A DNA stretch of 64,000 nt from Escherichia phage KKP 3954. This document shows, one piece after another, positions 1-61,132 of the stretch; the stretch's first letter is position 1, and every line of letters begins with the position of its first letter. Location: the sequence record OR067838.1; one strand, 5' to 3'. A model generated the notes under the pieces. That model was not told where the DNA came from. It saw nothing but the letters and a program-made list of their open reading frames with translations, and made no database searches. The position numbers and the translations under genes are program-made.

Positions 1-269
1 CAGACGAACAATCAGACCCTTTGGTATATAATCTATACGGGCAATACCGTTACGGATACAATGCTAAAGGTCGTCAGTTGGACTATGATGCACTTTACGA
101 TGCACTAATAGCTATGGCTAATGATTTGCTTCTCCGTGACCAAAAATGTAAGATCGGCTTACCTATGATTGGCGCTGGACATGCTGGAGGTAATTGGGCT
201 ATCATCCAAGTGATGATTGAAGAAACTTTAGTAAAAACAGGTCACGATGTGACTATTTATAAACTTTAA
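1..269 (+). CDS. hypothetical protein, 3' portion (frame open to window edge; first in-window start is TTG at 21)
   Basis: ORF track; frame has no stop back to position 3, so the gene probably starts upstream of the window; RBS-containing next gene follows. Confidence 0.35.
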   Translation, partial: DEQSDPLVYNLYGQYRYGYNAKGRQLDYDALYDALIAMANDLLLRDQKCKIGLPMIGAGHAGGNWAIIQVMIEETLVKTGHDVTIYKL

Positions 270-281
270 GAGGAGATTAGT

Positions 282-503
282 ATGGGTGTTTTTGCAGGTA
301 TTGTTGCAGTGGTAAGCTTTTTTGTTATTGCTTTTATGCTTAGTTTGATTCCAGCTTGGTTATTGTTGCTGGCTTACAACTATGTTGCTGAAGTTATGGG
401 TCATGCAGATATCACTGTCCCAGTAACCTTCTGGACCGTGGTTTGTGTTTCGTTTATTCTGGCTGTATTACGAGGAATCTTTTCCTCTCATTCAACAAAA
501 TAA
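282..503 (+). CDS. small hydrophobic membrane protein (2-3 predicted TM helices)
   Basis: ORF track; GAGGAG RBS 8 nt upstream of ATG; strongly hydrophobic sequence. Confidence 0.45.
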   Translation: MGVFAGIVAVVSFFVIAFMLSLIPAWLLLLAYNYVAEVMGHADITVPVTFWTVVCVSFILAVLRGIFSSHSTK

Positions 504-506
504 GTG

Positions 507-534
507 TTGACATAGTTCTTAAAAAGAGTAAGAT
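507..534 (+). promoter_or_regulatory. sigma70-like promoter (TTGACA -35, 16-nt spacer, TAAGAT -10) upstream of TerC gene
   Basis: TTGACA at 507-512 and TAAGAT at 529-534 read directly from sequence. Confidence 0.45.
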
Positions 535-584
535 ATATCACATGAAGCGGGGAATAGTTCCCCGCAAAGAGAAAGGAGAAAATA

Positions 585-1559
585 ATGCAACTTGGTTTCC
601 CAATCATTGATGTAGTTGTTTTAGTTGGTATTTTAGCATTGTCTATTGGTATCGATTTCTTTGGTCATAAAGAGAATAAAGAAATTGGAATTAAATCTGC
701 TTTGCTTTGGTCTGTTTTTTGGATTGCTTTAGCTTTAGGATATTACGCATTCATTTGGGTAGAACATGGTAAAGAGTTTGCCGCGCTTTTCCTAAGTGGC
801 TATGTGTTGGAAAAGAGTCTTTCTGTAGATAACCTAATGGTGTTCATGGCAATTTTTGCAAGCTTTGGAATTAAGAGCACACATCTCCAACATAAGATTT
901 TACTTTGGGGGATTGCAGGAGCCATTGTCTTCCGAGGTATTTTTGTTGCAGCAGGCACCGCTTTGTTTAACCTTCATTGGTCGGTCCAAGTGTTGTTCGG
1001 TTTGATTGTAGCTTGGTCTGCCGTGGCTATCATCAAAGGTGGTGATGAAGAAGAGGATATCGATTACTCTAAACATTGGGCTGTTCGTTTAGTAGGTAAA
1101 GTTCTGCCTGTGCACAATGCACTGGATGGTGAAAAGTTCATCACCATTAAGAATGGTATTAAATATGCAACTCCTGCTCTTCTTTGTGTGTTTGTTATTG
1201 AGCTTACAGATATTGTCTTCTCTTTTGATTCAGTTCCGGCTGTGATCGGTGTGACACAAGAACCTGTGCTAGTTTATTCTGCAATGCTGATGGCTGTTCT
1301 TGGTTTACGTGCACTTTTCTTTGTGTTAAGTGTAGCTGTGAAATATCTGGTTCACTTAGAGAAAGCTGTTGCTGTGGTTCTGGTGTTTGTTGGTGCTAAA
1401 CTTATGTATCACCCGTTCGGTGAAACACTTCATGCCAAGTGGTCATTCCTCCCGCATGATATTTCCCCTAACGTAAGTCTGATGATTGTTCTAGGCACAT
1501 TAGCTCTTGGTGTTATTGCAAGCTTTATCTTCCCTGAAAAAGAAGAAGCTGCTGTTTAA
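585..1559 (+). CDS. terC: TerC family integral membrane protein
   Basis: Multi-TM protein with the two TerC signature segments LEKSLSVDNLMVF and ELTDIVFSFDSVPAVIGVT; RBS AAAGGAG upstream. Confidence 0.8.
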   Translation: MQLGFPIIDVVVLVGILALSIGIDFFGHKENKEIGIKSALLWSVFWIALALGYYAFIWVEHGKEFAALFLSGYVLEKSLSVDNLMVFMAIFASFGIKSTHLQHKILLWGIAGAIVFRGIFVAAGTALFNLHWSVQVLFGLIVAWSAVAIIKGGDEEEDIDYSKHWAVRLVGKVLPVHNALDGEKFITIKNGIKYATPALLCVFVIELTDIVFSFDSVPAVIGVTQEPVLVYSAMLMAVLGLRALFFVLSVAVKYLVHLEKAVAVVLVFVGAKLMYHPFGETLHAKWSFLPHDISPNVSLMIVLGTLALGVIASFIFPEKEEAAV

Positions 1560-1566
1560 TAGATGA

Positions 1567-1590
1567 GCCTCCTTCGGGAGGCTATTTTTA
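1567..1590 (+). terminator. rho-independent terminator (GCCTCC-TTCG-GGAGGC then T-tract)
   Basis: Perfect 6-bp GC stem with tetraloop followed by TATTTTTA directly after TerC stop. Confidence 0.6.
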
Positions 1591-1602
1591 TAGGAGAGAC
1601 TT

Positions 1603-1953
1603 ATGAGCAATTTTGATGAAATTCAAAAACTTGTTTGGGATTTACCTGGTGATGTTGATTACGTTTCAGATTATCTTTCAAAAGTTTACCTTGGGGTAAG
1701 CGTTATGATTGTGACCAAAGATCCAATTAACCTTCCTCCTAATGTAGTAGCTTGTTGTGGAAGTGGTTCAGGAGAGGTAGAACCTGTATCTCGTTGGGAA
1801 TTAACCAAGGCTGTTTCAAAACGAAACGGCGAAGTTTTGAATATTGATATCGAACAAATCTGGACTTCTCCAGCCGCCAAGTGGAATGATCCTAATGGTT
1901 GGGATTTGTTCTTCTGGGATAATGAAACTGATGATGAGGTATTTTTAAAATGA
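1603..1953 (+). CDS. hypothetical protein
   Basis: ORF track; RBS GGAGAG upstream of ATG. Confidence 0.5.
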   Translation: MSNFDEIQKLVWDLPGDVDYVSDYLSKVYLGVSVMIVTKDPINLPPNVVACCGSGSGEVEPVSRWELTKAVSKRNGEVLNIDIEQIWTSPAAKWNDPNGWDLFFWDNETDDEVFLK

Positions 1954-2136
1954 AATACTTGTTGGTTGTGTTTGAAAATATTTGTTTTGCAATAGGGTTG
2001 TTTGTTGTAATTTTTGTATTGACAAGCGTAATCAACGGCAGTAAAGTGAGTTTATACCGAGATGGAGAGCAGCTTTATTGCTTCTCTGGAGATTTCAAAC
2101 ACAGATGTATTAATAGTCAAAACGAGGAAAGCAAAT

Positions 2137-2574
2137 ATGAAAAAACTAGCCCTGATTTTAATTGGTTGTATCTTTTTAACAGCTTGCGAGGATGAAACAA
2201 ATCCTACACAATATCAACAACCTCCTCAACAATACGCTCAACAAGGATCTGACGGAGATACAACTATTATCAACAATGGTGGCGGTTCTAGTAGTAGCGG
2301 TGTTGGTGAGTTTGCTACAGGTATGTTGTTAGGACATATGATGAGCGGTGGTAGTAATCGTAGCGGCGGGGATTATAACGATAACAGAACGATTATTAAT
2401 AAACATTATAACACACCTAAACCGAAAACTAATTTTTATGGTAAGCCTAAACAAGAGATAAAAACTTATGAAAAGCCAAGACAAACTTTTAAAACAAATA
2501 GCAGCTATACAACTCGTAAATCTTACAATAGCCCTTTAAGTAAAAAGAGTTCATCTCGTAGCAAGCGACGTTAA
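2137..2574 (+). CDS. putative lipoprotein, Gly/Ser-rich (start at internal ATG of track ORF 2062..2574)
   Basis: MKKLALILIGCIFLTAC signal with lipobox LTAC; GAGGAAA RBS before ATG at 2137. Confidence 0.55.
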   Translation: MKKLALILIGCIFLTACEDETNPTQYQQPPQQYAQQGSDGDTTIINNGGGSSSSGVGEFATGMLLGHMMSGGSNRSGGDYNDNRTIINKHYNTPKPKTNFYGKPKQEIKTYEKPRQTFKTNSSYTTRKSYNSPLSKKSSSRSKRR

Positions 2575-2588
2575 TAAGGAGAAAAATA

Positions 2589-3182
2589 ATGACAATTTCT
2601 ATTCGTACTTCCATCGTAGGTGTTAAAAGGTTGCCTAATGCTTTGCAAATCACACGTGCTTTGAGGGATACGTTCTCTGCTGTGGATGAGCATAAGATGC
2701 TTGATAATCTGTCAAATTGGCCCTATTTTCATTATTTTAAAAATGAAGACGACGAGTTTATAGATGCTGTTTCTTATGGTTATGATTTCGGTAAGGAGGT
2801 TTCTCCTGAAGAATTTGTAGCTACGGTATTCCCAAATGGTTTCCCTACTCGCAGTAAACGTAAAAAAGGACCAAAAAACAAGAAACGTGCTACTAATAAA
2901 GCTACCATTTTCTTTACTGATGGGACACAGTATACGATTAAAGATTTTGAAGAAGTATCTTATACAGCAGGTGGGAATCTTTCTTTCTACACCATCAAAA
3001 AACAAAACTCTACGTTCAGCCATGTTTCTAACATGATTGAAATGTTAGTAGAAGATATTGAAAGCGTGGCTGTGTTAGGTATGCATAAAAGCTTTTTAAT
3101 TACAAATATTTCAGATTTCAGTGCACGTTTATCTGGCCCTGATTTTGAAGCCACGACCACGCATTTCACTTTTAAGGTGTAA
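2589..3182 (+). CDS. hypothetical protein
   Basis: ORF track; AGGAGAAA RBS upstream. Confidence 0.5.
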   Translation: MTISIRTSIVGVKRLPNALQITRALRDTFSAVDEHKMLDNLSNWPYFHYFKNEDDEFIDAVSYGYDFGKEVSPEEFVATVFPNGFPTRSKRKKGPKNKKRATNKATIFFTDGTQYTIKDFEEVSYTAGGNLSFYTIKKQNSTFSHVSNMIEMLVEDIESVAVLGMHKSFLITNISDFSARLSGPDFEATTTHFTFKV

Positions 3183-3185
3183 GTT

Positions 3186-3776
3186 ATGTATACCGAGAGA
3201 GACTTGCAACTCTTGTGGTGGGAAGTGATGCAGGAAATAAAAGAAGATTTTCCTGTTTACTACAACATGTTACGTGAAGCAGGATATAAAGCTTGTGTTA
3301 GAAACAAAGTGAATAACTCTTTCGGTTGGTGCAACTACCGAGATAAAATTGTTGTTGTAAATTGGCACTTGCATAAGAACTCTACAAGAGATATGATCGT
3401 GGATACAATGAAGCACGAAATTGCTCATGCTATTGATGGTTGTATGGGTAAGTTTAGTCGGCACGGTGCTCATTGGCAAAAACTGGCAGCAGAATTAGGG
3501 GCTAATCCTAAAGCCACTTCCAAAGAGCCGTTGAACCACGAATATAAATATGTTCTTGTTCTGGTAGATAGGTTTGCGACAAGATGTGTTAGAGGTTATA
3601 ATCGTAAACCTAATCGCATGTACCCAGGTAAGCAACCTAATATGTGGTTGAAATCAGATAAAGAAGGGACCGAAGGAAAATTATGGTTGTATAAATGGGA
3701 CGATTGGGTTAAAGTAGCTAAAGAATACGGTGTTTCACCATATATAAGAGATGCAGAAGAGGAGAATGAAGAATGA
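3186..3776 (+). CDS. SprT-like zinc metalloprotease domain protein
   Basis: HEIAH zinc-binding motif followed by HGAHW, as in SprT-like domains; translationally coupled (ATGA overlap) with next gene. Confidence 0.55.
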   Translation: MYTERDLQLLWWEVMQEIKEDFPVYYNMLREAGYKACVRNKVNNSFGWCNYRDKIVVVNWHLHKNSTRDMIVDTMKHEIAHAIDGCMGKFSRHGAHWQKLAAELGANPKATSKEPLNHEYKYVLVLVDRFATRCVRGYNRKPNRMYPGKQPNMWLKSDKEGTEGKLWLYKWDDWVKVAKEYGVSPYIRDAEEENEE

Positions 3777-4885
3777 CAAGTCCATTTTTAAAAGCAGCTA
3801 CTGGTGGTCAGAAGAAGCCTGAAATGAGCGTATTTGCTGCAACAACAGATGCAAGTAAATCTGTATTCGCTCCAAGCGTGTTAGATGCCAGTCCTGTTTA
3901 TGCACCAGCGGCACCGCAAGAAGTTCCAGTTTTGCCTTCTATGACCCGACAAGAGATCGAAGAGATTGGGGCAGAGGCAGGAACAACCTTGCGTTCCTTG
4001 AATGCCGAGGTATTAAAACATCAACGTAGTAATCAAGGAGATCAGATGAGTGAACGACTCACAGCTTTGATTAAACAGGCAAAACAACTTGATCCAAACT
4101 CTATTAAACAAAGCAAAGGTATTACTAAACTCATTAAAAAAGTTATGGGTATGAAAGAAGACCTGTTTGGGGAGTTTGATAATGTTAATAACCGTATTGA
4201 AGAGTTGGTAAAGAACCTTCAAATGGATATTCGCAAAGAAGAAGATTCCTTGGTATATCTTGAAAAGCTACATCAAGCTATTGGACAATATGCCGCAAGT
4301 TTGAACCGAGATATGCAGCTTCTAACAGCAACCTACGAAAAAGAAGAACAAGCTTTGGCTGCTCTTCCAGAAGATGCGGTAGAACAGCGACAAGTGATCC
4401 GAGATACTTTGGATCTTCTGGAGATTCGTATTGCGGATTTAAAAGCATTGCGCCTACTGTGTGTCCAAATGGGACCACGTGTGCAAGGTATGCAAAAAGT
4501 TTCTGCAAGCTTAATGCGATCTGCGCGTAACATAGTAAATAATGTTATTCCTGCTTACTCTGCTAACTTCTCAATGTATATTGAGAGCTTGCGTCAAATG
4601 AAAGCCGCAGAGACGCAGAATAACGTTCTTGATGAATTTAACCTGGCAATTAAACTGGGTAGCGATCTTGCCACACAGAATCAGATCGAAGCAGCAGCAC
4701 TGGCTAACCGTCAAGTGTTGGATATTGAAACTCTGCGTCACGATCAGGAAAACTTGGTTAAGATGTTGGAAGAAACTAACCGCATCAATACGGAAGCCCG
4801 TGCTGCTCGTGTTGATTATATTAATGAAGTTCAATCTCTGGAAGACGGGATGGTAGCTGCTGTGAAACGAGGGCTTGGTAAATGA
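3773..4885 (+). CDS. telA: TelA-like (toxic anion resistance family) protein, alpha-helical/coiled-coil
   Basis: About 370 aa, helical, Q/E/L-rich; size, composition and Ter-gene context fit the TelA/KlaB family; family assignment from memory, not searched. Confidence 0.5.
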   Translation: MTSPFLKAATGGQKKPEMSVFAATTDASKSVFAPSVLDASPVYAPAAPQEVPVLPSMTRQEIEEIGAEAGTTLRSLNAEVLKHQRSNQGDQMSERLTALIKQAKQLDPNSIKQSKGITKLIKKVMGMKEDLFGEFDNVNNRIEELVKNLQMDIRKEEDSLVYLEKLHQAIGQYAASLNRDMQLLTATYEKEEQALAALPEDAVEQRQVIRDTLDLLEIRIADLKALRLLCVQMGPRVQGMQKVSASLMRSARNIVNNVIPAYSANFSMYIESLRQMKAAETQNNVLDEFNLAIKLGSDLATQNQIEAAALANRQVLDIETLRHDQENLVKMLEETNRINTEARAARVDYINEVQSLEDGMVAAVKRGLGK

Positions 4886-5077
4886 GAATCCGTATCTATA
4901 TAATTGATGAAGACATTGGTGTCCGTTATGATGACGAAAAACGATTCGCACCGATGGGAGGCATATACCCCCAAGTGTTCTAGCAGTTTGTCGTGATTGT
5001 TATATTTATGAAGGTTGTCGTAACTTCCGTAAATTCGAACTCCTTGCAGATATTGACTTCAATGAGGAGGAGGAGTA

Positions 5078-5251
5078 ATGAAAATATTACGAGTGAATAT
5101 TGAAACTGCTTGGTGTGGATGTAATGAGGTTGTGGATATCGAAATTGAAGATGATATGTCTCAAGAGGATATAGAAGATCTTGCGCACGAAACCTTTCAG
5201 GACTATTGTAATTACGGGTTCCATATTTTAGAGGAGGAAGAGGATGTTTAA
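5078..5251 (+). CDS. small acidic protein (57 aa; below ORF-track length cutoff)
   Basis: ATG at 5078 preceded by GAGGAGGAGGAG RBS; ends at TAA 5249-5251, 4-nt overlap with next gene start. Confidence 0.4.
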   Translation: MKILRVNIETAWCGCNEVVDIEIEDDMSQEDIEDLAHETFQDYCNYGFHILEEEEDV

Positions 5252-5447
5252 CTACGATAACGATCCTAATATTATCCAGTTAACCCGACAAGAACTGATC
5301 ACAATCATTGAAGATGCTTTTATTGATGGCTGGAATACACAAGATAATGACTGGGGTGGACCTGAAGCTTTTCTAGAACATCATAAAGCGTATGGAGAAT
5401 TTTGCGAAACCACTGTAGCTCTTGATAATCTGAAGGAGGGTTTGTAA
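5244..5447 (+). CDS. small acidic hypothetical protein
   Basis: ORF track; GAGGAGGAAGAGG RBS upstream. Confidence 0.45.
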   Translation: MFNYDNDPNIIQLTRQELITIIEDAFIDGWNTQDNDWGGPEAFLEHHKAYGEFCETTVALDNLKEGL

Positions 5448-6010
5448 TGGGTTGTTTTAGTTTTTTGTGTAAGGAATCGGGCAAAGCTGCCCTTTCTACT
5501 TCTTTCGACGGATCACCTTGCTATCTCTTTCTTTTGAAGGATGGTGTTGTTATTGAAGAGATGTATGGCAACTATGATAGTTATGGTTGTGTTTTCTCTG
5601 GAAAGGAGGATGAAAATGGCGTTCGTGAGCGGTTCGAATGGGCTATGGATTGGGGTAAGGTTTGTGATTTAATGCATTCCTCGAATCCAAGGGACGGTAT
5701 CGCTATGGTGCTGGAAGAGTATTTTACAGGCGAGATCCCTACAGAACAATCTGACGGAGATCCTAATCAAGGTTGGGGTGATGGGGAAGAAGATCCAGAT
5801 TGTTTTTTCAGCACAGAAAAGAATAAGTTTAAACGTGTTGACAACCCTTATCACAAAGTGCATAATACTCTCATTGAAACAGAAGATAACAAGATGGAAA
5901 TTGAAGAAGATGATCCTCTTGTAACACTTCCTATAAGCGAGTTGCAAAAGATCACTAAAGAAGCTTACGATTTGGGCTTCAAAATTGGTAAAGGAGGTAT
6001 ACGTGTTTAG
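5447..6010 (+). CDS. hypothetical protein
   Basis: ORF track; AAGGAGG RBS; coupled to flanking genes. Confidence 0.5.
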   Translation: MGCFSFLCKESGKAALSTSFDGSPCYLFLLKDGVVIEEMYGNYDSYGCVFSGKEDENGVRERFEWAMDWGKVCDLMHSSNPRDGIAMVLEEYFTGEIPTEQSDGDPNQGWGDGEEDPDCFFSTEKNKFKRVDNPYHKVHNTLIETEDNKMEIEEDDPLVTLPISELQKITKEAYDLGFKIGKGGIRV

Positions 6011-6281
6011 ATTCAATATTCAAGAAGAAAAGTGCCAGGATTTACCTATTGCTTTCGAAGATCTTGGCATAGGGGCCACATTCATGTATTATGATGCCTA
6101 TGAAGACGCAGGGTTGGATACCTACCGTAACTTGGTGTTCATTAAAAATTCCACAAACAGTGCGATCTGTATTAATGGATCACTAGCACAACGAGGCTAT
6201 ACTCATTGCATCCCACCAGATACAAATATGGTGGAAGTAGATTTAGAAGTTACCAATATTACACTTAAGAAGGAGAAATAA
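6003..6281 (+). CDS. hypothetical protein, paralog of 7305..7574 (GTG start after AAGGAGG)
   Basis: GTG at 6003 five nt after AAGGAGG; C-terminus VEVDLEVTNITLKK matches LEVELTVTGITLK of 7305..7574. Confidence 0.5.
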   Translation: MFRFNIQEEKCQDLPIAFEDLGIGATFMYYDAYEDAGLDTYRNLVFIKNSTNSAICINGSLAQRGYTHCIPPDTNMVEVDLEVTNITLKKEK

Positions 6282-6282
6282 T

Positions 6283-7079
6283 ATGTCCGAGAAAATCAGC
6301 CTGAAAAAACGTCAAGAAAACCTTGCTTTCTCTCTGAAAAAGAATAAGAACCTGAACGAAGGTAAGATTGTTCTTCGTGTAGCATGTGCTCTAGATATTT
6401 CTGGTAGTATGCATGGTCTATATACTCGTGGGGTAGTGAGTGATTTTGTAGGTAAACTGCTTCCTTTTGGTATGCTGTTCGACGATAATGAACAAATTGA
6501 CATGTGGGCCTTCAATACGAGTTCTCAAGAGCTTACTCCAGCAACAGCAGACGTTTACGATGACTACGTTGGTAAATGTATGCGTAATGTTCGTATCGGA
6601 GGTGGAACAAATTACGCCCCTGTAATGGCAGATATCTACGATGAGTATTTTGGCACTGTTACCAAATATGTTACCACTAAACAAGTGGTATACAAGAGGA
6701 GGCTCCAAAGAAAGGCTTCTTTAATCGTCTGCTTGGTAAAACTGAAACAGTATCGGTAGAGCGTGAAAAAGTTGTAGCTGTATCTGAACCAGGTGCTGAT
6801 GTTACTCCTGGCGTTGTATTCTTCCAGACAGACGGTGAGAATGGTGATCCTAGTGCTGTTCGTCGTCTTATTGAAGAGAATAAGAATAAGCCTATCTATT
6901 GGTTCATGGTTGGCGTTGGTAATGAGAAGTTCAGCTTCCTGAAAGAACTGGCAAATGCTTATGACAATGTTGGTTTTATTGGCATTAAAGATTTAGACTT
7001 GACAGATTCAGAGCTTTATGACAAACTCTTATCTGAAGAGTTCGGAGAGTGGGTTGTTAAAGTAGGTGCTAAAAAATGA
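6283..7079 (+). CDS. vWA domain protein with TerD-like N-terminal motif; reading frame broken near 6690-6710 (track ORF 6283..6759 continues in another frame to 7079)
   Basis: MIDAS motif DISGSM and GGGTNYAP in first frame; the vWA TDG segment (VVFFQTDGENGD) lies in the downstream frame, which has no start codon of its own until about 6907. Confidence 0.55.
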
Positions 7080-7324
7080 TCGACGAGCTTGCCTCTCAAG
7101 TCGTAGAAAATTATTGGCGCGAGAGAGAAGCTTTCATTATGCGCAGTCTCAAAGAATATTTCATTGGGACTGTGAGGATGGAAGATATTGTAAGTAGAGT
7201 AGAGATTCATGTATGGCCTGATTATGAAGAATGGGTTGACAAAGAAAATGAAAATGCTATAATTCTTCGTATATACAAACCGGAGATAACATTAGGAGGA
7301 AGAAGTGTTAAACTTCGAAATTGA
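7076..7324 (+). CDS. hypothetical protein
   Basis: ORF track; ATG overlaps preceding stop. Confidence 0.45.
   Translation: MIDELASQVVENYWREREAFIMRSLKEYFIGTVRMEDIVSRVEIHVWPDYEEWVDKENENAIILRIYKPEITLGGRSVKLRN
7236..7263 (+). promoter_or_regulatory. near-consensus sigma70 promoter (TTGACA, 16-nt spacer, TATAAT) inside 7076..7324, upstream of TerD cassette
   Basis: TTGACA 7236-7241 and TATAAT 7258-7263 read directly. Confidence 0.5.
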
Positions 7325-7574
7325 TGAGCAAAAAGTAAATAAACGATGCCTTACCATTAAAGATTTGGATGTAGGAGATACTTTCGTCTATGAAAATGCA
7401 TTTGACGAAAATGGTTTAGACCTTAGTGAAGTAATTGTTTATTTAAAAGTAGATGATGGGGAAAATGATTATTCTGCTGTAGAACTAAACCATCATGCAC
7501 AATTAGTAGCAATCCAAAACACATCTAAGCTTTTGGAAGTAGAATTGACTGTAACTGGTATTACACTTAAATAA
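7305..7574 (+). CDS. hypothetical protein, paralog of 6003..6281
   Basis: GTG start after AGGAGGA; shared C-terminal motif with 6003..6281. Confidence 0.5.
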   Translation: MLNFEIDEQKVNKRCLTIKDLDVGDTFVYENAFDENGLDLSEVIVYLKVDDGENDYSAVELNHHAQLVAIQNTSKLLEVELTVTGITLK

Positions 7575-7589
7575 TAGAGGAGACAAAAG

Positions 7590-8192
7590 ATGACTGATAA
7601 AATTTCCCTGAAAAAAGGCTCTAGCGAAAAAATTTCCCTGAAGAAAGTTGCTCCGGCTCTGAAAGAACTGCGCCTGGAATTCTCTTGGAAATCTGATTCT
7701 AAACTGGATCTGGATGTAAGTGCACTGGTTTGTCGTCATAATGCCGCTGGCAATCCTGAAATGCTGTCTGCACGTCATCTGGTTTGCTATGCTAACAAGT
7801 TTGATCCTGAACGTTCTACCTTCGCTGGTGACGATGTTCGTGATGGAACTGGCAGCATGGAGCAGATTGATATTACTCTGGCTAAAATCTCTCCTGATGC
7901 ACAAGAGATTGCCTTTGTTCTGACCATTGATGATGATACAGGTCTGAAACGTTTTGGTCATGCTTCTGAAGGTATGCTTAAAATCTTCGACTCCGAGCGC
8001 AATGTGGAAATTCTGGATTTTGACTTCCTGGCTCCTGAAGTAGCTGGCAACACAATCTGCCACGTGGCTTCCTTGGTTCGTGAAGATGGGGAATGGAAAC
8101 TGAAAGCATATGGTGTAGGTAAAGCTGGTCTGGATATTTGCGATGTGGTGATGGCCTTCGGTGGTAAAAAAGAATGGTATGAATGTCCATAA
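7590..8192 (+). CDS. terD: TerD family protein
   Basis: Aligns by eye along its length to E. coli TerD: duplicated ISLKK N-terminus, GDDVRDGTGSMEQIDITL matching the GDNRTGEGDGDDE calcium-binding region, GEWKLKAYGVGKAGL near C-terminus. Confidence 0.85.
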   Translation: MTDKISLKKGSSEKISLKKVAPALKELRLEFSWKSDSKLDLDVSALVCRHNAAGNPEMLSARHLVCYANKFDPERSTFAGDDVRDGTGSMEQIDITLAKISPDAQEIAFVLTIDDDTGLKRFGHASEGMLKIFDSERNVEILDFDFLAPEVAGNTICHVASLVREDGEWKLKAYGVGKAGLDICDVVMAFGGKKEWYECP

Positions 8193-8210
8193 TAATTAAC
8201 AAATGATTTT

Positions 8211-8234
8211 GAGGGGGAGAAATCCCCCTCTTGC
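8211..8234 (+). terminator. GC-rich hairpin (GAGGGGGA-GAAA-TCCCCCTC) after TerD
   Basis: 8-bp perfect stem read directly; weak T-tract. Confidence 0.5.
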
Positions 8235-8259
8235 AATAAAGCCTCTATCGTGTTATACT
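8231..8259 (+). promoter_or_regulatory. sigma70-like promoter (TTGCAA, 17-nt spacer, TATACT)
   Basis: Hexamers read directly; intergenic, upstream of 8292 gene. Confidence 0.5.
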
Positions 8260-8291
8260 AGAAGTTCGTTAACTTAAAAAGGAGGCAAAAT

Positions 8292-8813
8292 TTGCTGATA
8301 AAAAACTTTGTAACAGTTGCGTTACTATCCTTAACTGCTTTTACATTTACACCTGTTGTGGCGAAAGCCGAAGCTGCAAACGTAAAAACCGCTAAAGTAG
8401 TTCACAAATATACAAAGCAATATAATGATAAAATTCTATTAGCTTGTGCAATTTACGCAGAAGGTCGCGGTCTGGGTAAAAAGGGAATGAATGCCGTTGG
8501 GAATGTGGTAATCAATAGAAGAAATGATGCCTACTTTCCTAACACAGTCAGAGGAGTCTTGTTCCAGAAAGGGCAATTCTCATATGCGAAAACTTTTAAC
8601 GTAACAGAGAAAGATAAGTGGCAGGAAGCAAAAGCAATAGCGGAGCGTTTACTTTATTTAGAGAAACATTTTCCTGAATTGCGGTCTGTTTTAGATGTTA
8701 CTAAAGGTGCTCTATACTTCAAGAAGCGGAATATAAAGACACACTGGGAGCGTGATATGCGTCTTGTTTATCGAGATAAAGTGCATGGTTTCTATCTACC
8801 AAAGGGGAGTTAA
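8292..8813 (+). CDS. secreted cell wall hydrolase, SleB-like (Hydrolase_2) domain with N-terminal signal peptide; candidate endolysin
   Basis: Signal peptide then AIYAEGRG...VINRR...FQKGQFS, typical of SleB-type hydrolases; TTG start 7 nt after AAGGAGG. Confidence 0.6.
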   Translation: MLIKNFVTVALLSLTAFTFTPVVAKAEAANVKTAKVVHKYTKQYNDKILLACAIYAEGRGLGKKGMNAVGNVVINRRNDAYFPNTVRGVLFQKGQFSYAKTFNVTEKDKWQEAKAIAERLLYLEKHFPELRSVLDVTKGALYFKKRNIKTHWERDMRLVYRDKVHGFYLPKGS

Positions 8814-8815
8814 AA

Positions 8816-9099
8816 TGCAAGAAGATAATACTGTTGTTGTAGCAAGTTACCTGGTTGTCGGTCTTACCGAAGAGGACGTATACTACACCCGTAAGCATTT
8901 GGAAGCATACGCTACTTTGTTTATGGAAGATGAAAAGGATGTAGATAAATACAGTATTGATATGATCAACGACAGTATTTATCCTTGTATGGTTCTTAAA
9001 GTAGATGCTGTGTTGTGGGAGCGTTTTGCAAGGACTCATGATGCTGTAGAATGCTCCGCAGTAATGTCTCAAAACAACATTTTAGGGGAGATTCACTGA
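8816..9099 (+). CDS. hypothetical protein (start at ATG 8816 rather than track start 8752)
   Basis: AAGGGGAG RBS before ATG 8816. Confidence 0.45.
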
Positions 9100-9329
9100 T
9101 GGGAGAAGTCATTGAAGTCAATTTTCGCACTAAACAAAAAGTGCAAAAATATGTCGTTATTAAAAACATTTGCGTTGTCTGCTTCAATACTGTAATATAC
9201 GATTCACGACGCGGAGAAAACGAAAATGAACCTTACATTGAAATTTCTAAGAACAAAGGTCAATGTATTTGTAAGAACTGTGCAGTAGCTATTAAGGAGG
9301 TTGTAAATGAAAACGCTTGGGACCAATGA
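9099..9329 (+). CDS. small zinc-ribbon protein (CxxC...CxxC)
   Basis: ATG 9099 overlaps previous stop; two CxxC pairs. Confidence 0.45.
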   Translation: MGEVIEVNFRTKQKVQKYVVIKNICVVCFNTVIYDSRRGENENEPYIEISKNKGQCICKNCAVAIKEVVNENAWDQ

Positions 9330-9498
9330 AACTGGCGAGATCTCTCTTCAAGAAGTGACAAACGACAAACTGATTAAACTACGGGATGTAGCTCGTGACC
9401 ATCTCCAAGAATCTTTTAAAGAATATATGGAAGCACGAGATCGTGTCATCCAAATCCAACAAGAAATGATTAAACGTGGGATTGTAGCTGACAGTTAA
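9307..9498 (+). CDS. small hypothetical protein
   Basis: ORF track; AAGGAGG RBS. Confidence 0.45.
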   Translation: MKTLGTNETGEISLQEVTNDKLIKLRDVARDHLQESFKEYMEARDRVIQIQQEMIKRGIVADS

Positions 9499-9514
9499 TA
9501 TAACGGAGGGGAGA

Positions 9515-10078
9515 ATGATTTATTATATTACTCCCTATCTGACAGGAAATATCGGCAAGGCTATCAATGAAGCTATTGCCGTTCTTCCAGATGATAGTTG
9601 GGTGTGTTTAAGAGATACCGATACGATGTTCCTCCTACCTGATCAACCATCTATGCTTGAAGAGCTTGTTATGTCAAACCCGCCTTTTGATGTAATAGGT
9701 GCAACTTGTAACAGGTTAGGTAGTGGTTATCAGCTTTTCTCTAACCAAATTAACGATGATCCAGATATTCTAAACCATATAGAATATGCTAAGATTGCAA
9801 GAGAATATCATAAAGTGAGTGTTGAAGAAGTTCCTTTTGGAACACCTCTGGCAGGTTTCTTTTTGCTTTTTAGAAAATCATTGTGGAATGAAATTCCTTT
9901 CGAAGAAAAATCTATCCAATTTGACTTAATTTTCTCTCGCACTTTACATGAAAAAGGAAAGAGGTTAGGATTGATGCGGGGAATGTATCTGTTTCACATT
10001 TACAGATTAGGTCAAACAAATCCTCAACGGTCTATACATCATTTATTACACTGTCACGATCACAGTAAAACTATTTAG
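9515..10078 (+). CDS. hypothetical protein, possible GT-A-like glycosyltransferase (DTD motif)
   Basis: ORF track; GGAGGGGAG RBS; weak motif similarity only. Confidence 0.35.
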   Translation: MIYYITPYLTGNIGKAINEAIAVLPDDSWVCLRDTDTMFLLPDQPSMLEELVMSNPPFDVIGATCNRLGSGYQLFSNQINDDPDILNHIEYAKIAREYHKVSVEEVPFGTPLAGFFLLFRKSLWNEIPFEEKSIQFDLIFSRTLHEKGKRLGLMRGMYLFHIYRLGQTNPQRSIHHLLHCHDHSKTI

Positions 10079-10086
10079 GAGAGAAA

Positions 10087-10770
10087 ATGGAAAATATTAA
10101 AATCGGAGTGGGTGTTATCACTGTAGGTGTCCGTCCACTTAAAGACTACCTTGTAACAGATCCACATGCAGATTTTCGAGTATTCAACGATCCAGATCGT
10201 AAAGGTGTAGCTTACGCCAGGAATGAACTTATGCACCAGTTTTATGAAGAAGGTTATGATTATTGGTTTATTTTTGACGACGATTGCTACCCAATCATGG
10301 AGGGATGGGAAACATATTTTGTAGATCAAGCTGTCTCTGGAGGATGGGATTTCTTTGGTATGCCGGAGTATTTCAAAGATAAAGTTGTTGGGAGTAAAGG
10401 AGAAGTTATTCTCTGGGAACTTGCAATGTGTCAATTTGCAATGTATTCTCGTGCCGTTGTTGAGAAGATGGGTTATTTCCGCCCTTACACTCACGGCTAT
10501 GGTTTTGAAGATGCTGAATGGGTACACCGTTTGAAAGCTGCTGGTTTGAATCAGGGTATTCAGGCAATACCTTGTCCACTTCGTATCATGGCTTATATCC
10601 ACCCAGACGATGTTTTTGGAAACAATCCTATGCCTTTTGCTAATCTGACAAAAGAAGAGAAAGAAGCTGCTATTGGCATTAACTGGGAAGAATATAAAGC
10701 GTCTTTAGAAGATATTAAAAATGGGAAAATCCGAATTTCTTATGAGGAGGCACTGGCACATGTCAAATAA
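10087..10770 (+). CDS. glycosyltransferase family 2-like protein
   Basis: GT-A features: N-terminal GVGVITVG, AYARNEL, FIFDDDC acidic motif. Confidence 0.55.
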   Translation: MENIKIGVGVITVGVRPLKDYLVTDPHADFRVFNDPDRKGVAYARNELMHQFYEEGYDYWFIFDDDCYPIMEGWETYFVDQAVSGGWDFFGMPEYFKDKVVGSKGEVILWELAMCQFAMYSRAVVEKMGYFRPYTHGYGFEDAEWVHRLKAAGLNQGIQAIPCPLRIMAYIHPDDVFGNNPMPFANLTKEEKEAAIGINWEEYKASLEDIKNGKIRISYEEALAHVK

Positions 10771-11707
10771 AAAATGGACTAAACTGAAAATTGATGCAAA
10801 ACCTCACAGTGGTTGTGATTATCATCGTATTGTTATACCATTTAACAACAATAATTTTCAGCCTAAGAAAGATGTTGTCGTGTTTAACCGTATTCATTCT
10901 AAAGGGGCAGAATATGTTCTGTCCCTGAAACGTCAAGGTGTTAAGATTATTGTAGATTTAGATGATTTCTACCAACTTAATCCAGAACATTATTTAGCAA
11001 GTTTATATGAGTCAAACACTCATGCTATTGTAGCTATGGTTAAGCTTGCCGATGTGGTCATTGTGACTACGGAATATTTGGCATATAAGATCCGTCACTT
11101 AAATAGGAATGTTGTTGTGATCCGAAATGCACTTCCTTTTGATAGCGGACAATTCACTTTGTCAAATGATCGTTCATCCGGTACCCCTGTTGTATGGGCT
11201 GGCGGTGCTAGTCACGAACCCGATTTACGACTAGTCTCTAATACTTTCGATGATGAACTTCTTACTATTGCAGGATATGAAGCATCGCAGAGTATCACGG
11301 GGCAAGAGTGGATTAAGATCCGTAGAAATTTACCAAACGCCAAATATAAAGCTGCTGTAAAAGATTTAGATAATTACATGAGTGTTTACGAAAGTCATGC
11401 TATTGCTATAGCTCCTTTGGTAGACAATGATTTTAATAATTGTAAAAGTAATCTCAAAATCCTTGAAGCTGGGGCAAAAGGTATTCCGATTGTTTGTTCT
11501 AAGGTATTACCTTATTTTAACCCTGTGGATGCTCGCGCTGTTGCTTACGCAGAGAATAAAGCAGAATGGCATTACGAAATTGTTAAACTTCTTCGCAATC
11601 CGAACTATCGGGAAGATCGCGGCTTGTTCTTAGCGGAACATGTTCGAACACATTATAATCTGGCAGATGCAAACGAATTGCGACGCCAGGTTATTGAAAG
11701 CTTGTAG
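10760..11707 (+). CDS. putative glycosyltransferase (GT-B-like), paralog of 11715..12659
   Basis: ATG 10760 after GAGGAGG; shares CDYHRIVIPF, DLDD, WAGG, KSNLKILEAGAKGIP and VRTHY blocks with next gene. Confidence 0.5.
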   Translation: MSNKKWTKLKIDAKPHSGCDYHRIVIPFNNNNFQPKKDVVVFNRIHSKGAEYVLSLKRQGVKIIVDLDDFYQLNPEHYLASLYESNTHAIVAMVKLADVVIVTTEYLAYKIRHLNRNVVVIRNALPFDSGQFTLSNDRSSGTPVVWAGGASHEPDLRLVSNTFDDELLTIAGYEASQSITGQEWIKIRRNLPNAKYKAAVKDLDNYMSVYESHAIAIAPLVDNDFNNCKSNLKILEAGAKGIPIVCSKVLPYFNPVDARAVAYAENKAEWHYEIVKLLRNPNYREDRGLFLAEHVRTHYNLADANELRRQVIESL

Positions 11708-11714
11708 GTGAAGT

Positions 11715-12659
11715 ATGGGACAAATAATTCTTGACAATCGTAACGGAATCAATTATAGTGTCTGCGATTTCCATAGGGTAGTGCTGCCTTACTCAAGGCA
11801 GTTCTCTTCACAACCTAAACACAACGTTTTCGTTTTTAACGGAGTGCCAACAAAAGGTAAAGAGGGCTTTTTAGCCCTTAAAAACCTAGGCTTTAAAATG
11901 GTTATGGATTTGGATGACTCTTTAGTTATTCCAAAAGGACACATGTTAGAAGGTATTTTTGAATCCGGTATTCGTGAACATTTAAAATGGTTTTTAGAGC
12001 ACAGTGATCTTGTTACAACTACGACACCTGCCTTGCAAGTTGAACTTTCACAATACAATGATAATGTGCACATAATCCCTAATGGACTTCCTTATGATGA
12101 AGGTCAATTTGTGTTGACCCGTGATCGCTACTCCAAAACTCCATTAGTCTGGGCTGGAAGTGAAACACATAAACAAGATTTGGCTATCTTACCCGATTTT
12201 GGTAAAGATCTTACAATATGTGGTTTTCGTAGGGATTCTGAAGTTTTAAGTAGTCGTGAATGGTCTTTAATCAGAGAAAATGTAGCACCAACTTGTGTTT
12301 ATGAAGGTGTAAGACCATATGCCAACTACATGGAATCTTACGATGGTCATCAAATCAGTCTTGCACCATTGATCGATAACGTGTTTAATAATGCAAAAAG
12401 CAATCTTAAAATTCTTGAGGCAGGTGCTAAGGGTTTACCTTTAATCTGCTCTCCTCGTGAGAATTATCATACACAAGAGTTTAAAGATTTGTTATTCTTT
12501 GCTGAAACACCTTCCGAGTGGAAAGATATTACGGAATACTTATTAAGTGCTCCCGATGTTTGCATGGAGAAAGGATTAGCATTAGCTAAGTATGTCAGGA
12601 CTCATTATCACATTGATGTGTTGAATGAGCGTCGTAGACTTTTATTTGAGGAGCTATAA
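11715..12659 (+). CDS. putative glycosyltransferase (GT-B-like), paralog of 10760..11707
   Basis: Tandem paralog; KSNLKILEAGAKGLPLICS motif. Confidence 0.5.
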   Translation: MGQIILDNRNGINYSVCDFHRVVLPYSRQFSSQPKHNVFVFNGVPTKGKEGFLALKNLGFKMVMDLDDSLVIPKGHMLEGIFESGIREHLKWFLEHSDLVTTTTPALQVELSQYNDNVHIIPNGLPYDEGQFVLTRDRYSKTPLVWAGSETHKQDLAILPDFGKDLTICGFRRDSEVLSSREWSLIRENVAPTCVYEGVRPYANYMESYDGHQISLAPLIDNVFNNAKSNLKILEAGAKGLPLICSPRENYHTQEFKDLLFFAETPSEWKDITEYLLSAPDVCMEKGLALAKYVRTHYHIDVLNERRRLLFEEL

Positions 12660-15261: not shown

Positions 15262-16056
15262 TTGAGCAAGTTGAACACACTTGATCAATATTACACTAAC
15301 CCCGCTTATGCGGGGTTCTTATGTGATAAGATCAAAGAAATTTTTGGAGAGGAAGCTAACTACGTAGAACCATCTGCGGGAGAAGGAGCTTTCTCTTCTT
15401 GTTTTAAAAACATAACTTCTTTTGATATTGACCCTAAGTTTGAAGATTGTATTGAGGCAGATTTTTTAGCTCAATCTGTTGAGTCTGTTGGTAGTGTAAC
15501 TGCTTTTGTCGGTAATCCTCCATTTGGAAAAAATGCTAGTCTTGCCATTAAATTCTTTAACCATTGTGCTGAAATGCTGGATAACGAAGGTGGTATTTGT
15601 TTTATCTTGCCTCGCACATTTCAAAAAATCTTTTTTGCACACAAACTAAATCCCCATATGCATCTTCTTTACGAAGAAGAATGTCCAAAAGGATCTTTTA
15701 TTCTTCATGGAGAACCTTGGGATGTTCCTTGTGTATTCCAGATATGGATTAAACGCAACGAGAAGCGTTCTCCCGTTGTTTTAGGAGAGAATCGACTATT
15801 CGTATTAGGTAACAGTAAAGACTACGATATAGCCGTTAGGAGAGCGGGAGCAAGTGCAGGTAAAGTGTTATCAGAAGAAGATTCTTTATCTGAAGCATCT
15901 ACCTATTTTTTAAAAGCCTTGACTTCTGATCTTAAAACGCGTATCATTGAGGCTTACCCGTTACTTAAAGCTGAAGCTAGTAAAACTGCGGGAGTAAGAA
16001 GTTTAAGTTTAAAAGAACTTCAGTGGGTTCTGGAGAACATTAGAAAGGAGGAATAG
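15262..16056 (+). CDS. DNA N6-adenine methyltransferase
   Basis: AdoMet motif EPSAGEGAF and catalytic NPPF motif; TTG start after AAGGAGG. Confidence 0.65.
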   Translation: MSKLNTLDQYYTNPAYAGFLCDKIKEIFGEEANYVEPSAGEGAFSSCFKNITSFDIDPKFEDCIEADFLAQSVESVGSVTAFVGNPPFGKNASLAIKFFNHCAEMLDNEGGICFILPRTFQKIFFAHKLNPHMHLLYEEECPKGSFILHGEPWDVPCVFQIWIKRNEKRSPVVLGENRLFVLGNSKDYDIAVRRAGASAGKVLSEEDSLSEASTYFLKALTSDLKTRIIEAYPLLKAEASKTAGVRSLSLKELQWVLENIRKEE

Positions 16057-61053: not shown

Positions 61054-61132
61054 TGGAGGCGGGAATTGGATTTGAACCAATGATCTCCAGCATATGAAAC
61101 TGGCGAGGACGACCAGACTCCTCTATCCCGCT
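61054..61132 (-). tRNA. tRNA-Met (anticodon CAT), initiator-like
   Basis: Manual fold: T-arm ATTGG-TTCAAAT-CCAAT, anticodon loop TTCATAT; 3' CCA encoded; ends approximate by 1-2 nt. Confidence 0.6.

What the first reader, a model, noticed from the sequence alone, without database searches (positions are those of the whole stretch)
282..8192. Phage-borne Ter-like stress-response module (TerC, SprT-like protease, TelA-like, vWA, TerD)
Within 8 kb on one strand, under sigma70-like promoters, the phage encodes a TerC-family membrane protein (both signature motifs), a translationally coupled SprT-like HExxH protein and TelA-like protein, a vWA protein with a TerD-like N-terminus, and a bona fide TerD paralog, interspersed with small unknown proteins. 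TerC, TerD, TelA and vWA genes co-occur in bacterial ter (tellurite resistance / stress response) operons whose biochemistry is still poorly understood. Finding the set on a lytic-type phage genome next to its replication genes suggests a phage-deployed membrane or metal (Ca2+/Mn2+) homeostasis, stress-tolerance or anti-defense function. I cannot tell from sequence whether this arrangement has been described for this phage lineage.
Basis: partly seen in the sequence, partly recalled or inferred. Interest (0 to 1): 0.8.

Follow-up and report, generated by a model that had tools for sequence, protein, structure and literature searches.

The report
Known phage Ter (TerC–TelA–vWA–TerD) gene block
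This stretch of a phAPEC8-like E. coli phage really does carry TerC, TelA, vWA and TerD "tellurite-resistance-type" genes, but the same block is already annotated in dozens of sister phages and noted in the literature, and its role during infection is still untested.

Summary
Pfam hits above the curated cut-offs identify TerC (585-1559), SprT-like (3186-3776), TelA (3773-4885), vWA-TerF-like (6283-7079) and TerD (7590-8192), all on the + strand.

The window is a Phapecoctavirus (phAPEC8-like). The block is 97-98% identical to more than 60 deposited phages. Public records already name these domains, and the ZCKP1 paper (2018) already reports "four tellurite-resistance genes". Iyer et al. (2021) described abbreviated phage Ter operons in general. 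The finding is therefore a rediscovery.

What I add:
- The module continues upstream of the window, with HAD, PRTase_3 and macro genes.
- TerC is of the Alx type, has no riboswitch, and has its own promoter and terminator.
- The TerD acidic calcium loop is degenerate across the subfamily.
- One relative carries DUF475 in place of TerC.
- SprT-like is a variable accessory gene, not a core part.
- A small SH3-like protein is duplicated in front of both vWA and TerD.
- The genes are under strong purifying selection.
- The vWA gene is frameshifted in this sequence. This is most likely an assembly error, because the same GTAC→GTATAC change also breaks a tail-fibre gene and falls inside a head-decoration gene.

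The mechanism is inferred, not shown. I favour an early-expressed, membrane-proximal complex that protects the envelope and ion balance of the infected cell and excludes secondary invaders.

The parts
21..269 (+). C-terminal part of a macro-domain gene. It is the last gene of the upstream HAD-PRTase_3-macro trio, which lies mostly outside the window.
   Evidence: The full-length orthologue in EF1-1 matches Pfam Macro (E 6e-5) and weakly matches the DarG macro domain. The upstream neighbours are PRTase_3 PF15610 (E 2e-41) and a HAD-like hydrolase.
282..503 (+). Small hydrophobic membrane protein (73 aa, phrog_16065).
   Evidence: Translation and PHROG match. Conserved in Paula at 60% identity.
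507..534 (+). Sigma70-like promoter for terC (TTGACA-16-TAAGAT).
585..1559 (+). TerC/Alx-family membrane protein, a putative divalent-cation (Mn2+) transporter.
   Evidence: Pfam TerC E 3e-40. NCBIfam TIGR03718, 318 bits against a cut-off of 246. dN/dS 0.03-0.14. No riboswitch found.
1566..1583 (+). Intrinsic terminator hairpin followed by a T-run, directly after terC.
   Evidence: Also annotated as a terminator in Schickermooser.
1603..1953 (+). Unknown 116-aa protein (phrog_27498).
   Evidence: No Pfam match.
1950..2195 (+). Small single-pass membrane protein (phrog_17591).
2137..2574 (+). Putative lipoprotein with signal peptide and lipobox LTAC and a Gly/Ser-rich body. Conserved in all three genera examined.
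   Evidence: Translation, PHROG match, and BLASTP to Paula and 05F01.
2589..3182 (+). Conserved unknown 197-aa protein (phrog_27550), present in all three genera.
   Evidence: The family is narrow and has no Pfam match.
3186..3776 (+). SprT-like zinc metallopeptidase (HEIAH...HGAHW). A variable accessory gene, translationally coupled to telA in this genus.
   Evidence: Pfam E 4e-9. Present in 05F01 but absent from Paula.
3773..4885 (+). TelA-family protein.
   Evidence: Pfam E 3e-33. 100% identical to phAPEC8. dN/dS 0.02-0.09.
4882..5080 (+). Small ORF, 64-66 aa in relatives. In the window it is broken by a 1-nt deletion at about 4968.
5244..5447 (+). Small conserved 67-aa protein, present in all three genera.
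5447..6010 (+). Member of a widespread 'MGCFSF...GNYDSYG...DPNQGWG' phage protein family. It sits inside the block but is not Ter-specific.
6003..6281 (+). SH3-like small beta-barrel protein (phrog_11278), paralogue 1, immediately upstream of the vWA gene.
   Evidence: A promoter-like site lies at 5838-5866.
6283..7079 (+). vWA-TerF-like gene. It has the MIDAS motif DISGS, a threonine in GGTNY, and TDGE. In the window it is split by a TA insertion at 6689-6690, which is probably a sequencing artefact at a GTAC site.
7076..7324 (+). Unknown 82-aa protein (phrog_22387). It contains a perfect consensus sigma70 promoter at 7236-7263.
7305..7574 (+). SH3-like small beta-barrel protein (phrog_11278), paralogue 2, immediately upstream of terD.
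7590..8192 (+). TerD-domain protein with a degenerate acidic calcium-binding loop (GDDVRDGTG--SMEQ).
   Evidence: Pfam E 3e-28. PDB 2KXT alignment. Multiple alignment. dN/dS 0.04-0.12.

Best explanation
Identity (near-certain): this is the conserved, abbreviated Ter system of Stephanstirmvirinae phages (phAPEC8, phi92 and relatives). Its core is a TerC/Alx-type membrane transporter, TelA, a TerF-type vWA protein and one TerD. Around the core sit a lipoprotein, small membrane proteins and two SH3-like proteins. Just upstream of the window lies a HAD-PRTase_3-macro 'nucleoside-like metabolite' arm. The block sits in the early and replication region, between the ribonucleotide reductase genes and the primase/helicase and DNA polymerase genes.

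Mechanism (inferred): the genes are read by host RNA polymerase from sigma70-like promoters early in infection. TerC inserts in the inner membrane and moves divalent cations (Mn2+, possibly Ca2+ or Zn2+). TerD, the MIDAS-bearing vWA protein and TelA assemble as a cytoplasmic, membrane-proximal complex on or near TerC. The SH3-like proteins may act as adaptors for the shared KISLKK N-termini of vWA and TerD. Together they stabilise the envelope and ion balance of the infected cell and make it refractory to secondary insults, namely superinfecting phages and pore-forming colicins, for the duration of the long lytic cycle. This would reproduce for the phage the phage-inhibition and colicin-resistance phenotypes reported for bacterial ter clusters. 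The PRTase_3/HAD pair may supply a small nucleoside-type ligand for the complex.
For: Identity:
- Pfam and NCBIfam hits above the curated cut-offs.
- 97-98% identity to more than 60 phage genomes with the same annotation.

The genes are a functional unit:
- The same four families cluster in unrelated phages.
- Synteny is kept across three genera. In 05F01, TerC is replaced by the related DUF475 family, a non-orthologous displacement that argues for a required membrane partner.
- Purifying selection is strong, with dN/dS of 0.02-0.25.
- PRTase_3 with an adjacent HAD gene co-occurs in Ter-bearing Caulobacter and Brevundimonas phages.

The block is centred on the membrane:
- It encodes TerC, two small membrane proteins and a lipoprotein.

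Expression is likely early:
- Sigma70-like promoters are present, and terC forms a unit with its own promoter and terminator.
- The flanking genes are replication genes.

Literature:
- TerC-family proteins export Mn2+ and metalate exported enzymes. In B. subtilis, meeF is part of the yceCDEmeeF operon; that yceC, yceD and yceE are TerD paralogues is from my own knowledge.
- Bacterial ter clusters are associated with phage inhibition and colicin resistance, and the same superinfection-exclusion reading has been proposed for phage Ter genes.
- TerD genes are highly transcribed in gut jumbo phages, one of them next to a pspA-like gene.
Against: - No experiment exists for any phage Ter gene. Warring et al. 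state that the function during infection is unknown.
- TerB and the TerZ, TerA and TerE paralogues needed for the classical phenotypes are absent.
- The TerD acidic calcium loop is degenerate in this lineage, so calcium sensing is uncertain.
- No PADLOC defence model matches any core protein.
- Promoter enrichment is weak, about 2 sd.
- The physical complex and the adaptor role of the SH3-like proteins are pure inference from gene order.
- The PRTase_3-HAD pair also occurs in Rhizobium phages that did not show up as TelA carriers, so its link to Ter is not obligatory.
Confidence: 0.4

Rival explanations
1. Metal-economy module. The phage TerC/Alx exports or redistributes Mn2+ (or Ca2+ or Zn2+) to keep cytoplasmic metal levels right for phage enzymes such as ribonucleotide reductases, polymerase and phosphoesterases, or to metalate exported phage proteins. 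TerD, vWA and TelA would act as regulators. No exclusion function is involved.
For: - TerC meets the TerC/Alx 'metal homeostasis' subfamily cut-off.
- TerC proteins export Mn2+ and metalate Sec-exported enzymes.
- The block is flanked upstream by anaerobic ribonucleotide reductase genes. It is followed by a signal-peptide-bearing SleB/CwlJ-type wall hydrolase at 8292-8813.
- The phage copy has lost the Mn2+ riboswitch that controls alx, which would give constitutive expression during infection.
Against: - It does not explain why TelA, vWA and TerD always travel with TerC in phages.
- Hydrolase_2-type lysins are not known metalloenzymes (own knowledge).
- E. coli already has Alx and MntP.
Confidence: 0.25
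2. Anti-defence or counter-signalling module. The phage proteins mimic or titrate host Ter-type or membrane-acting abortive-infection systems. Alternatively, the HAD-PRTase_3-macro arm makes or destroys a nucleotide-derived immune signal.
For: - The macro domain resembles the DarG antitoxin macro domain.
- PRTase_3 and HAD are the predicted 'signal biosynthesis' enzymes of bacterial Ter systems.
- The block lies among early accessory genes, where anti-defence genes typically sit.
Against: - Most E. coli hosts lack terZABCDEF (own knowledge), so there is little to mimic.
- The phage TerD is at most 36% identical to plasmid TerD, TerE and TerZ.
- No known anti-defence family matched.
Confidence: 0.15
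3. Genuine tellurite or xenobiotic resistance conferred on the infected host.
For: Only the family names and database labels such as 'tellurite resistance' support this.
Against: - TerB, TerA, TerZ and TerE are missing.
- The phage is virulent, so it gives the host no lasting benefit.
- The authors of the PhiPsa374 study reach the same conclusion.
Confidence: 0.04
4. Host DNA mis-assembled into the contig, or a decaying non-functional relic.
For: Two frameshifts fall inside the block in this sequence, at 4968 and 6689.
Against: - No match in 5,426 E. coli genomes.
- The composition is uniform.
- The synteny is identical in more than 60 phages.
- dN/dS is 0.02-0.25.
- The same kinds of indel (a TA insertion at GTAC, and homopolymer slips) also break tail-fibre, sheath-like and tailspike-like genes in the window. 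They are therefore sequence errors.
Confidence: 0.02

Closest known systems
The same block in published Phapecoctavirus and Justusliebigvirus genomes (phAPEC8, ZCKP1, Schickermooser, ESCO13, phi92, Paula)
   Same: It is 97-98% identical in DNA within the genus. Gene order is the same. TerC, TelA, vWA-TerF, TerD and PRTase_3 are already noted in the records. The ZCKP1 paper reports four tellurite-resistance-related genes and proposes colicin and superinfection protection.
   Different: The window has two frameshifts, probably artefacts. Justusliebigvirus lacks the SprT-like gene and has a longer macro protein.
Abbreviated phage Ter operons (PhiPsa374 terC-terD-terF-telA, Caulobacter jumbo phages, phiKp34) and the fuller Ter system of Acinetobacter phage ME3 (Iyer et al. 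2021)
   Same: They share the core set of TerC, TerD, vWA/TerF and TelA. ME3 also has PRTase and HAD genes.
   Different: TelA is only 21-25% identical. Gene order and the interspersed genes differ. The other phage TerDs keep the acidic DDE loop, which this lineage has lost.
Bacterial terZABCDEF cluster (IncHI2 R478, E. coli O157, Klebsiella plasmids)
   Same: It contains a TerC membrane protein, the TerD fold and a TerF-type vWA domain. It has historical links to phage inhibition and colicin resistance.
   Different: The phage block has no TerB and a single TerD instead of four or five paralogues. Its vWA protein lacks the full TerD domain of TerF. TelA is present here, whereas in bacteria it belongs to a separate kilA/telAB locus. 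Identity to plasmid TerD, TerE and TerZ is at most 36%.
Bacillus subtilis yceCDE-meeF(yceF)-yceG-yceH operon
   Same: TerD-family genes, a TerC-family Mn2+ exporter and TelA (YceH) lie in one stress-responsive operon (plus own knowledge for YceH being TelA and for YceC, YceD and YceE being TerD paralogues).
   Different: The Bacillus operon has three TerD paralogues and no vWA protein. It is bacterial and under sigma-factor control.
E. coli Alx
   Same: Both belong to NCBIfam subfamily TIGR03718, TerC/Alx. Alx is a Mn2+ exporter.
   Different: The phage gene has no yybP-ykoY riboswitch leader. Its leader is about 45 nt, and there is no Rfam hit.

Membership tests
Pfam TerC (PF03741) / NCBIfam TIGR03718 TerC/Alx | Profile score above the curated cut-off, and the two acidic TM motifs (E-x-SLS-x-DN and D-x-x-F-x-x-DS-x-PA) | tested here: met
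   138 bits against 27.8. 318 bits against 246. LEKSLSVDN and TDIVFSFDSVPA can be read in the translation.
Alx-type regulation | A yybP-ykoY Mn2+ riboswitch in the leader | tested here: not met
   No Rfam match at E <= 1 in 1-9000. The leader is only about 45 nt.
Pfam TerD (PF02342) | Profile score above the cut-off over the whole domain | tested here: met
   98.9 bits against 25.3, residues 5-179. E 1.5e-15 to PDB 2KXT.
Calcium-binding TerD (Klebsiella TerD type) | Acidic loop GDN(R/L)TG(E/A)GDGDDE | tested here: not met
   The window has GDDVRDGTG--SMEQ. Paula has GEDVRDGVG--QMEQ and 05F01 has GGDVRDGSG--DKET. Bacterial TerDs and other phage TerDs keep DGDDE or QDDE. Metal binding itself cannot be tested with these tools.
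Pfam TelA (PF05816) | Profile score above the cut-off over nearly the full model | tested here: met
   115.7 bits against 30, model positions 13-327 of 332.
vWA-TerF-like (PF10138) | Full-length domain with a MIDAS motif (DxSxS...T...D) | tested here: inconclusive
   Intact orthologues score 130 bits and carry DISGS, GGTNY and TDGE. In the window only the N-terminal half is in frame (61 bits, model positions 2-98) because of the TA insertion at 6689. The rest is intact in the +1 frame. The insertion is probably an artefact.
TerF (TerD domain fused to vWA) | N-terminal complete TerD domain | tested here: not met
   There is no TerD Pfam hit on the vWA protein. It shares only the KISLKK motif of about 20 aa.
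Classical terZABCDEF tellurite-resistance operon | TerB, plus multiple TerD paralogues (TerZ, TerA, TerD, TerE) | tested here: not met
   Pfam scans of the plus-strand ORFs of 67 aa or more in 282-8192 found no TerB and only one TerD.
Abbreviated phage Ter operon (Iyer et al. 2021) | TerC, TerD, TerF-type vWA and TelA clustered in a phage genome | tested here: met
   The same set is found in Otagovirus and Bertelyvirus loci.
Ter 'nucleoside-like metabolite' biosynthetic arm | A Ter-type PRTase (PF15610) with a HAD phosphoesterase next to the ter genes | tested here: met
   This was seen in near-identical relatives, just upstream of window position 1. PRTase_3 scores E 2e-41 and overlaps a HAD-like gene. 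The product is not testable here.
SprT-like (PF10263) | HExxH plus a third His ligand, with profile score above the cut-off | tested here: met
   36.7 bits against 25.6. HEIAH...HGAHW is in the translation. It falls far below the NCBIfam SprT equivalog cut-off (21 against 175), so it is a family member but not an orthologue of E. coli SprT.
Known anti-phage defence systems (PADLOC 2.0) | A match to any defence-system protein model | tested here: not met
   No hit for TerC, TelA, vWA, TerD or PRTase_3. There is only a marginal SspF hit for the SprT-like protein (E 0.006).

The most novel reading that the evidence does not exclude
The Stephanstirmvirinae block, together with the upstream HAD-PRTase_3-macro genes, could be a self-contained phage signalling-plus-membrane device. 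The PRTase and HAD enzymes would make a nucleoside-like ligand. That ligand would gate a complex of TerC, a TerD that has lost its calcium-binding loop, vWA and TelA. The lineage-specific SH3-like adaptors and a lipoprotein would help assemble the complex. The device would actively seal the infected cell against superinfecting phages, colicins or host abortive-infection pores. On this reading the lineage would be the first genetically tractable E. coli model for the long-unsolved biochemistry of Ter systems.
Probability: 0.15. Interest if true: 0.65.

Novelty: already known. Interest (0 to 1): 0.25.

Why it matters
What Ter systems (TerC, TerD, TelA, vWA) actually do has been an open question for decades. 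Their repeated capture by large virulent phages suggests a role in the infected cell's membrane or ion physiology.

This window adds no new kind of system, because the block is already annotated and discussed for this lineage. It does show that phAPEC8-like phages of E. coli K-12 carry a compact Ter set under strong purifying selection, together with the PRTase/HAD arm. That makes them a convenient genetic model for testing the competing ideas: exclusion, metal handling or anti-defence.

There is also a practical point. The apparent vWA pseudogene in this sequence is probably an assembly error tied to GTAC sites, so it should not be over-interpreted.

Tried and rejected
- **Riboswitch or other RNA element upstream of terC.** No Rfam hit in 1-9000 at E <= 1.
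- **PADLOC defence models.** Nothing for the core proteins.
- **Sequence search of the PDB.** No relatives for TelA, TerC, vWA or SprT-like. Only TerD matched.
- **The 197-aa protein at 2589-3182.** Only four close homologues were found, so it was not modelled.
- **The vWA frameshift as a biological pseudogene or programmed frameshift.** Rejected in favour of an artefact. None of 61 relatives has it. The downstream frame is intact with dN/dS 0.04. The same GTAC→GTATAC insertion breaks a tail-fibre gene and falls inside a head-decoration gene in the window.
- **Recent capture from host ter operons.** Rejected. Identity to plasmid TerD-family proteins is at most 36%, and there is no E. coli genome match.
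- **Resources that were unavailable.** The afdb50 fold library was not installed. Anantharaman et al. 2012 is not held in the library, so statements about that paper rest on how later papers quote it and on my own knowledge.

Full report
**What is in the sequence.** On the + strand between 282 and 8192 there is a tight run of ORFs.
- TerC, 585-1559, E 3e-40.
- SprT-like, 3186-3776, E 4e-9.
- TelA, 3773-4885, E 3e-33.
- vWA-TerF-like, from 6283, E 2e-16.
- TerD, 7590-8192, E 3e-28.

Both TerC signature motifs and the HEIAH...HGAHW zinc site of the SprT-like protein can be read directly in the translations. SprT and TelA overlap by ATGA. TerC also passes NCBIfam's TerC/Alx subfamily cut-off, at 318 bits against 246.

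**Where it comes from.** The 7.9-kb block is 97-98% identical over its whole length to more than 60 deposited phage genomes of the genus Phapecoctavirus (phAPEC8, Schickermooser, ESCO13, ZCKP1 and others). The TelA protein is 100% identical to that of phAPEC8.

The block is not host DNA:
- GC content is uniform at 0.38-0.40.
- There is no megablast match in 5,426 complete E. coli genomes.
- The phage TerD is at most 36% identical to any plasmid TerD, TerE or TerZ.

Downstream lie a signal-peptide-bearing SleB/CwlJ-type wall hydrolase, four glycosyltransferases, a primase/helicase (12950-14728) and a DNA polymerase (16056-18653). Upstream in relatives lie the anaerobic ribonucleotide reductase genes. 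The block therefore sits in the early and replication arm of a virulent myovirus.

**It is already known.** The evidence is as follows.
- The Schickermooser GenBank record already lists TIGR03718 (Alx), TelA, vWA-TerF-like, TerD and PRTase_3 as conserved domains of these very genes. It also annotates the terminator after terC.
- phi92 and Paula annotate a 'membrane bound tellurium resistance protein', a 'stress/toxic anion resistance protein' and a 'stress protein'.
- The ZCKP1 paper (a phage 97.5% identical here) states that four tellurite-resistance-related genes are present. It proposes colicin resistance and superinfection prevention.
- Iyer et al. [quoted passage not shown] They propose competition with superinfecting phages.
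- PhiPsa374 and phiKp34 are further published cases.

(a) The module extends upstream of window position 1. In relatives, the gene whose last 82 codons occupy 21-269 is a macro-domain protein. It is preceded by an overlapping PRTase_3 gene (PF15610, E 2e-41) and a HAD-like hydrolase. This is the 'signal biosynthesis' arm of Ter systems as summarised. PRTase_3 with an adjacent HAD gene also occurs in Caulobacter and Brevundimonas jumbo phages, which carry TelA. It also occurs in Rhizobium phages, which did not appear as TelA carriers, so the link is frequent but not obligatory.

(b) terC is a self-contained unit. It has a promoter-like site at 507-534, a leader of about 45 nt with no riboswitch, and a strong terminator at 1566-1583.

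(c) Comparison with Justusliebigvirus (Paula) and Klebsiella phage 05F01 defines the conserved core. It runs: TerC-like protein, lipoprotein, 197-aa protein, TelA, 67-aa protein, SH3-like protein, vWA, TerD. In 05F01, TerC is replaced by the related DUF475 family. This displacement argues that a TerC-type membrane partner is required. SprT-like is absent from Paula and not adjacent to TelA in 05F01, so it is an accessory gene.

(e) The TerD acidic loop, which reads GDNRTGEGDGDDE in Klebsiella TerD, is shortened to GDDVRDGTG--SMEQ. It is similarly degenerate in all three genera. Caulobacter and Pseudomonas phage TerDs and bacterial TerDs keep it.

(f) All core genes are under strong purifying selection, with dN/dS of 0.02-0.25.

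**The vWA frameshift.** In the window the vWA ORF ends at 6759 because of a TA insertion at 6689-6690. None of 61 relatives has this insertion. The downstream 129 codons are intact in the other frame and evolve conservatively. A second frameshift, a 1-nt deletion at about 4968, breaks a small ORF.

Aligning the whole window to Schickermooser shows that these are part of a pattern. Indels fall in homopolymers or at GTAC sites. Three GTAC sites became GTATAC: 6689, 39299 and 54004. Several indels break essential structural genes: the tail fibre at 39299, a sheath-like protein at 49748, and others at 28828 and 47052. Of the 45 GTAC sites in the relative, 33 are altered in the window. The simplest reading is systematic sequencing or assembly error. 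I therefore treat vWA as intact in the real phage.

**How it most likely works.** Nothing has been shown experimentally for any phage Ter gene. The following is known from bacteria.
- TerC-family proteins export Mn2+ and metalate exported enzymes. In B. subtilis, meeF is part of the yceCDEmeeF operon; that its yceC, yceD and yceE genes encode TerD paralogues is from my own knowledge.
- Klebsiella TerD's structure is solved (PDB 2KXT); that it binds calcium is from my own knowledge.
- ter clusters are associated with phage inhibition and resistance to pore-forming colicins.

From the anatomy, I infer an early-expressed, membrane-proximal complex. The relevant features are:
- four or five membrane or lipid-anchored products;
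- a MIDAS-bearing vWA protein;
- TelA;
- one TerD;
- sigma70-type promoters;
- a position in the early arm.

The complex would stabilise the envelope and ion balance of the infected cell and exclude secondary invaders. The PRTase_3/HAD arm may supply a ligand. I put this mechanism at about 0.4. The identity of the block is about 0.97.

The rivals are:
- a pure metal-economy role, 0.25;
- anti-defence or counter-signalling, 0.15;
- true tellurite resistance, 0.04, disfavoured by the absence of TerB and the TerD paralogues;
- mis-assembly or a relic, 0.02, refuted.

**Verdict.** The core is right. The SprT-like gene is over-included, and the upstream arm and the frameshift were missed. This is a correct rediscovery of an annotated and published feature. 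It has modest residual interest, because the function of phage Ter systems is still unknown and this lineage would be a good model for testing it.

Noticed in passing
[not shown]
   Followed up: partly
whole window, e.g. 6689, 28828, 39299, 44424, 48706, 49748, 54004: Compared with the 98%-identical phage Schickermooser, 33 of 45 GTAC sites are altered in the window. The changes are G-to-A substitutions, GTAC→GTATAC insertions and others. The remaining indels lie in homopolymers. Several break tail-fibre, sheath-like and tailspike-like genes. This looks like systematic long-read error at one motif, which would imply that GTAC is a modified site in this phage's DNA. A DNA methyltransferase gene lies at 15262-16056.
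   Followed up: partly
whole window; L001, L012, L013, L004 against L003: GTAC is strongly under-represented in Phapecoctavirus: 26 against 229 expected in the window, and 38 against 169 and 42 against 136 in Schickermooser. It is also depleted in phage 05F01 (16 against 61). It is not depleted in the sister genus Justusliebigvirus (50 against 63). This suggests lineage-specific restriction-site avoidance.
   Followed up: partly
window about 4968, within the small ORF 4882-5080: A 1-nt deletion next to a C5 run frameshifts a 64-66-aa ORF that is intact in relatives. It is probably the same kind of sequence error.
   Followed up: yes
window 7236-7263 and 5838-5866 (+): A perfect consensus sigma70 promoter (TTGACA-16-TGnTATAAT, 12 of 12 matches) lies inside ORF 7076-7324. 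An 11-of-12 site lies inside ORF 5447-6010. Each is just upstream of one of the two SH3-like paralogues, so the promoter appears to have been duplicated along with the small gene and the start of the next gene.
   Followed up: partly
window 21-269 (+) and L001:5515-5988: The macro-domain protein encoded just before the block resembles the macro domain of the DarG antitoxin (NCBIfam E 2e-8, far below the cut-off). It could counter ADP-ribosylating defence toxins rather than belong to the Ter arm.
   Followed up: no
L001:3419-4024 (upstream of the window in relatives): A 201-aa protein annotated 'hydrolase' has no Pfam hit but matches two PADLOC AbiEi models (E 7e-13 and 2e-11).
   Followed up: no
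L004:4531-5595 (Klebsiella phage 05F01): At the position of terC this related phage carries a DUF475 protein (E 5e-93). DUF475 is a different member of the TerC-like superfamily, so this is a non-orthologous replacement within conserved synteny.
   Followed up: partly
window 8292-8813 (+): An SleB/CwlJ-type cell-wall hydrolase (endolysin PHROGs) with a clear N-terminal signal peptide is encoded directly after terD in all three genera.
   Followed up: no
window 9515-12659 (+): Four consecutive glycosyltransferase genes. The last two (10721-11707 and 11715-12659) are paralogues. The ZCKP1 authors suggested a surface-polysaccharide modification role.
   Followed up: no
window 61057-62977 (-): A cluster of 11 tRNA genes.
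   Followed up: no
L011 (Photobacterium sp. GJ3 replicon pGJ3-1) 6688-10173: The best non-phage TerD match in the plasmid collection (36% identity) lies in a TelA-TelA-TerD-TerD cluster. This is a bacterial example of TelA and TerD linked without TerC or vWA.
   Followed up: partly
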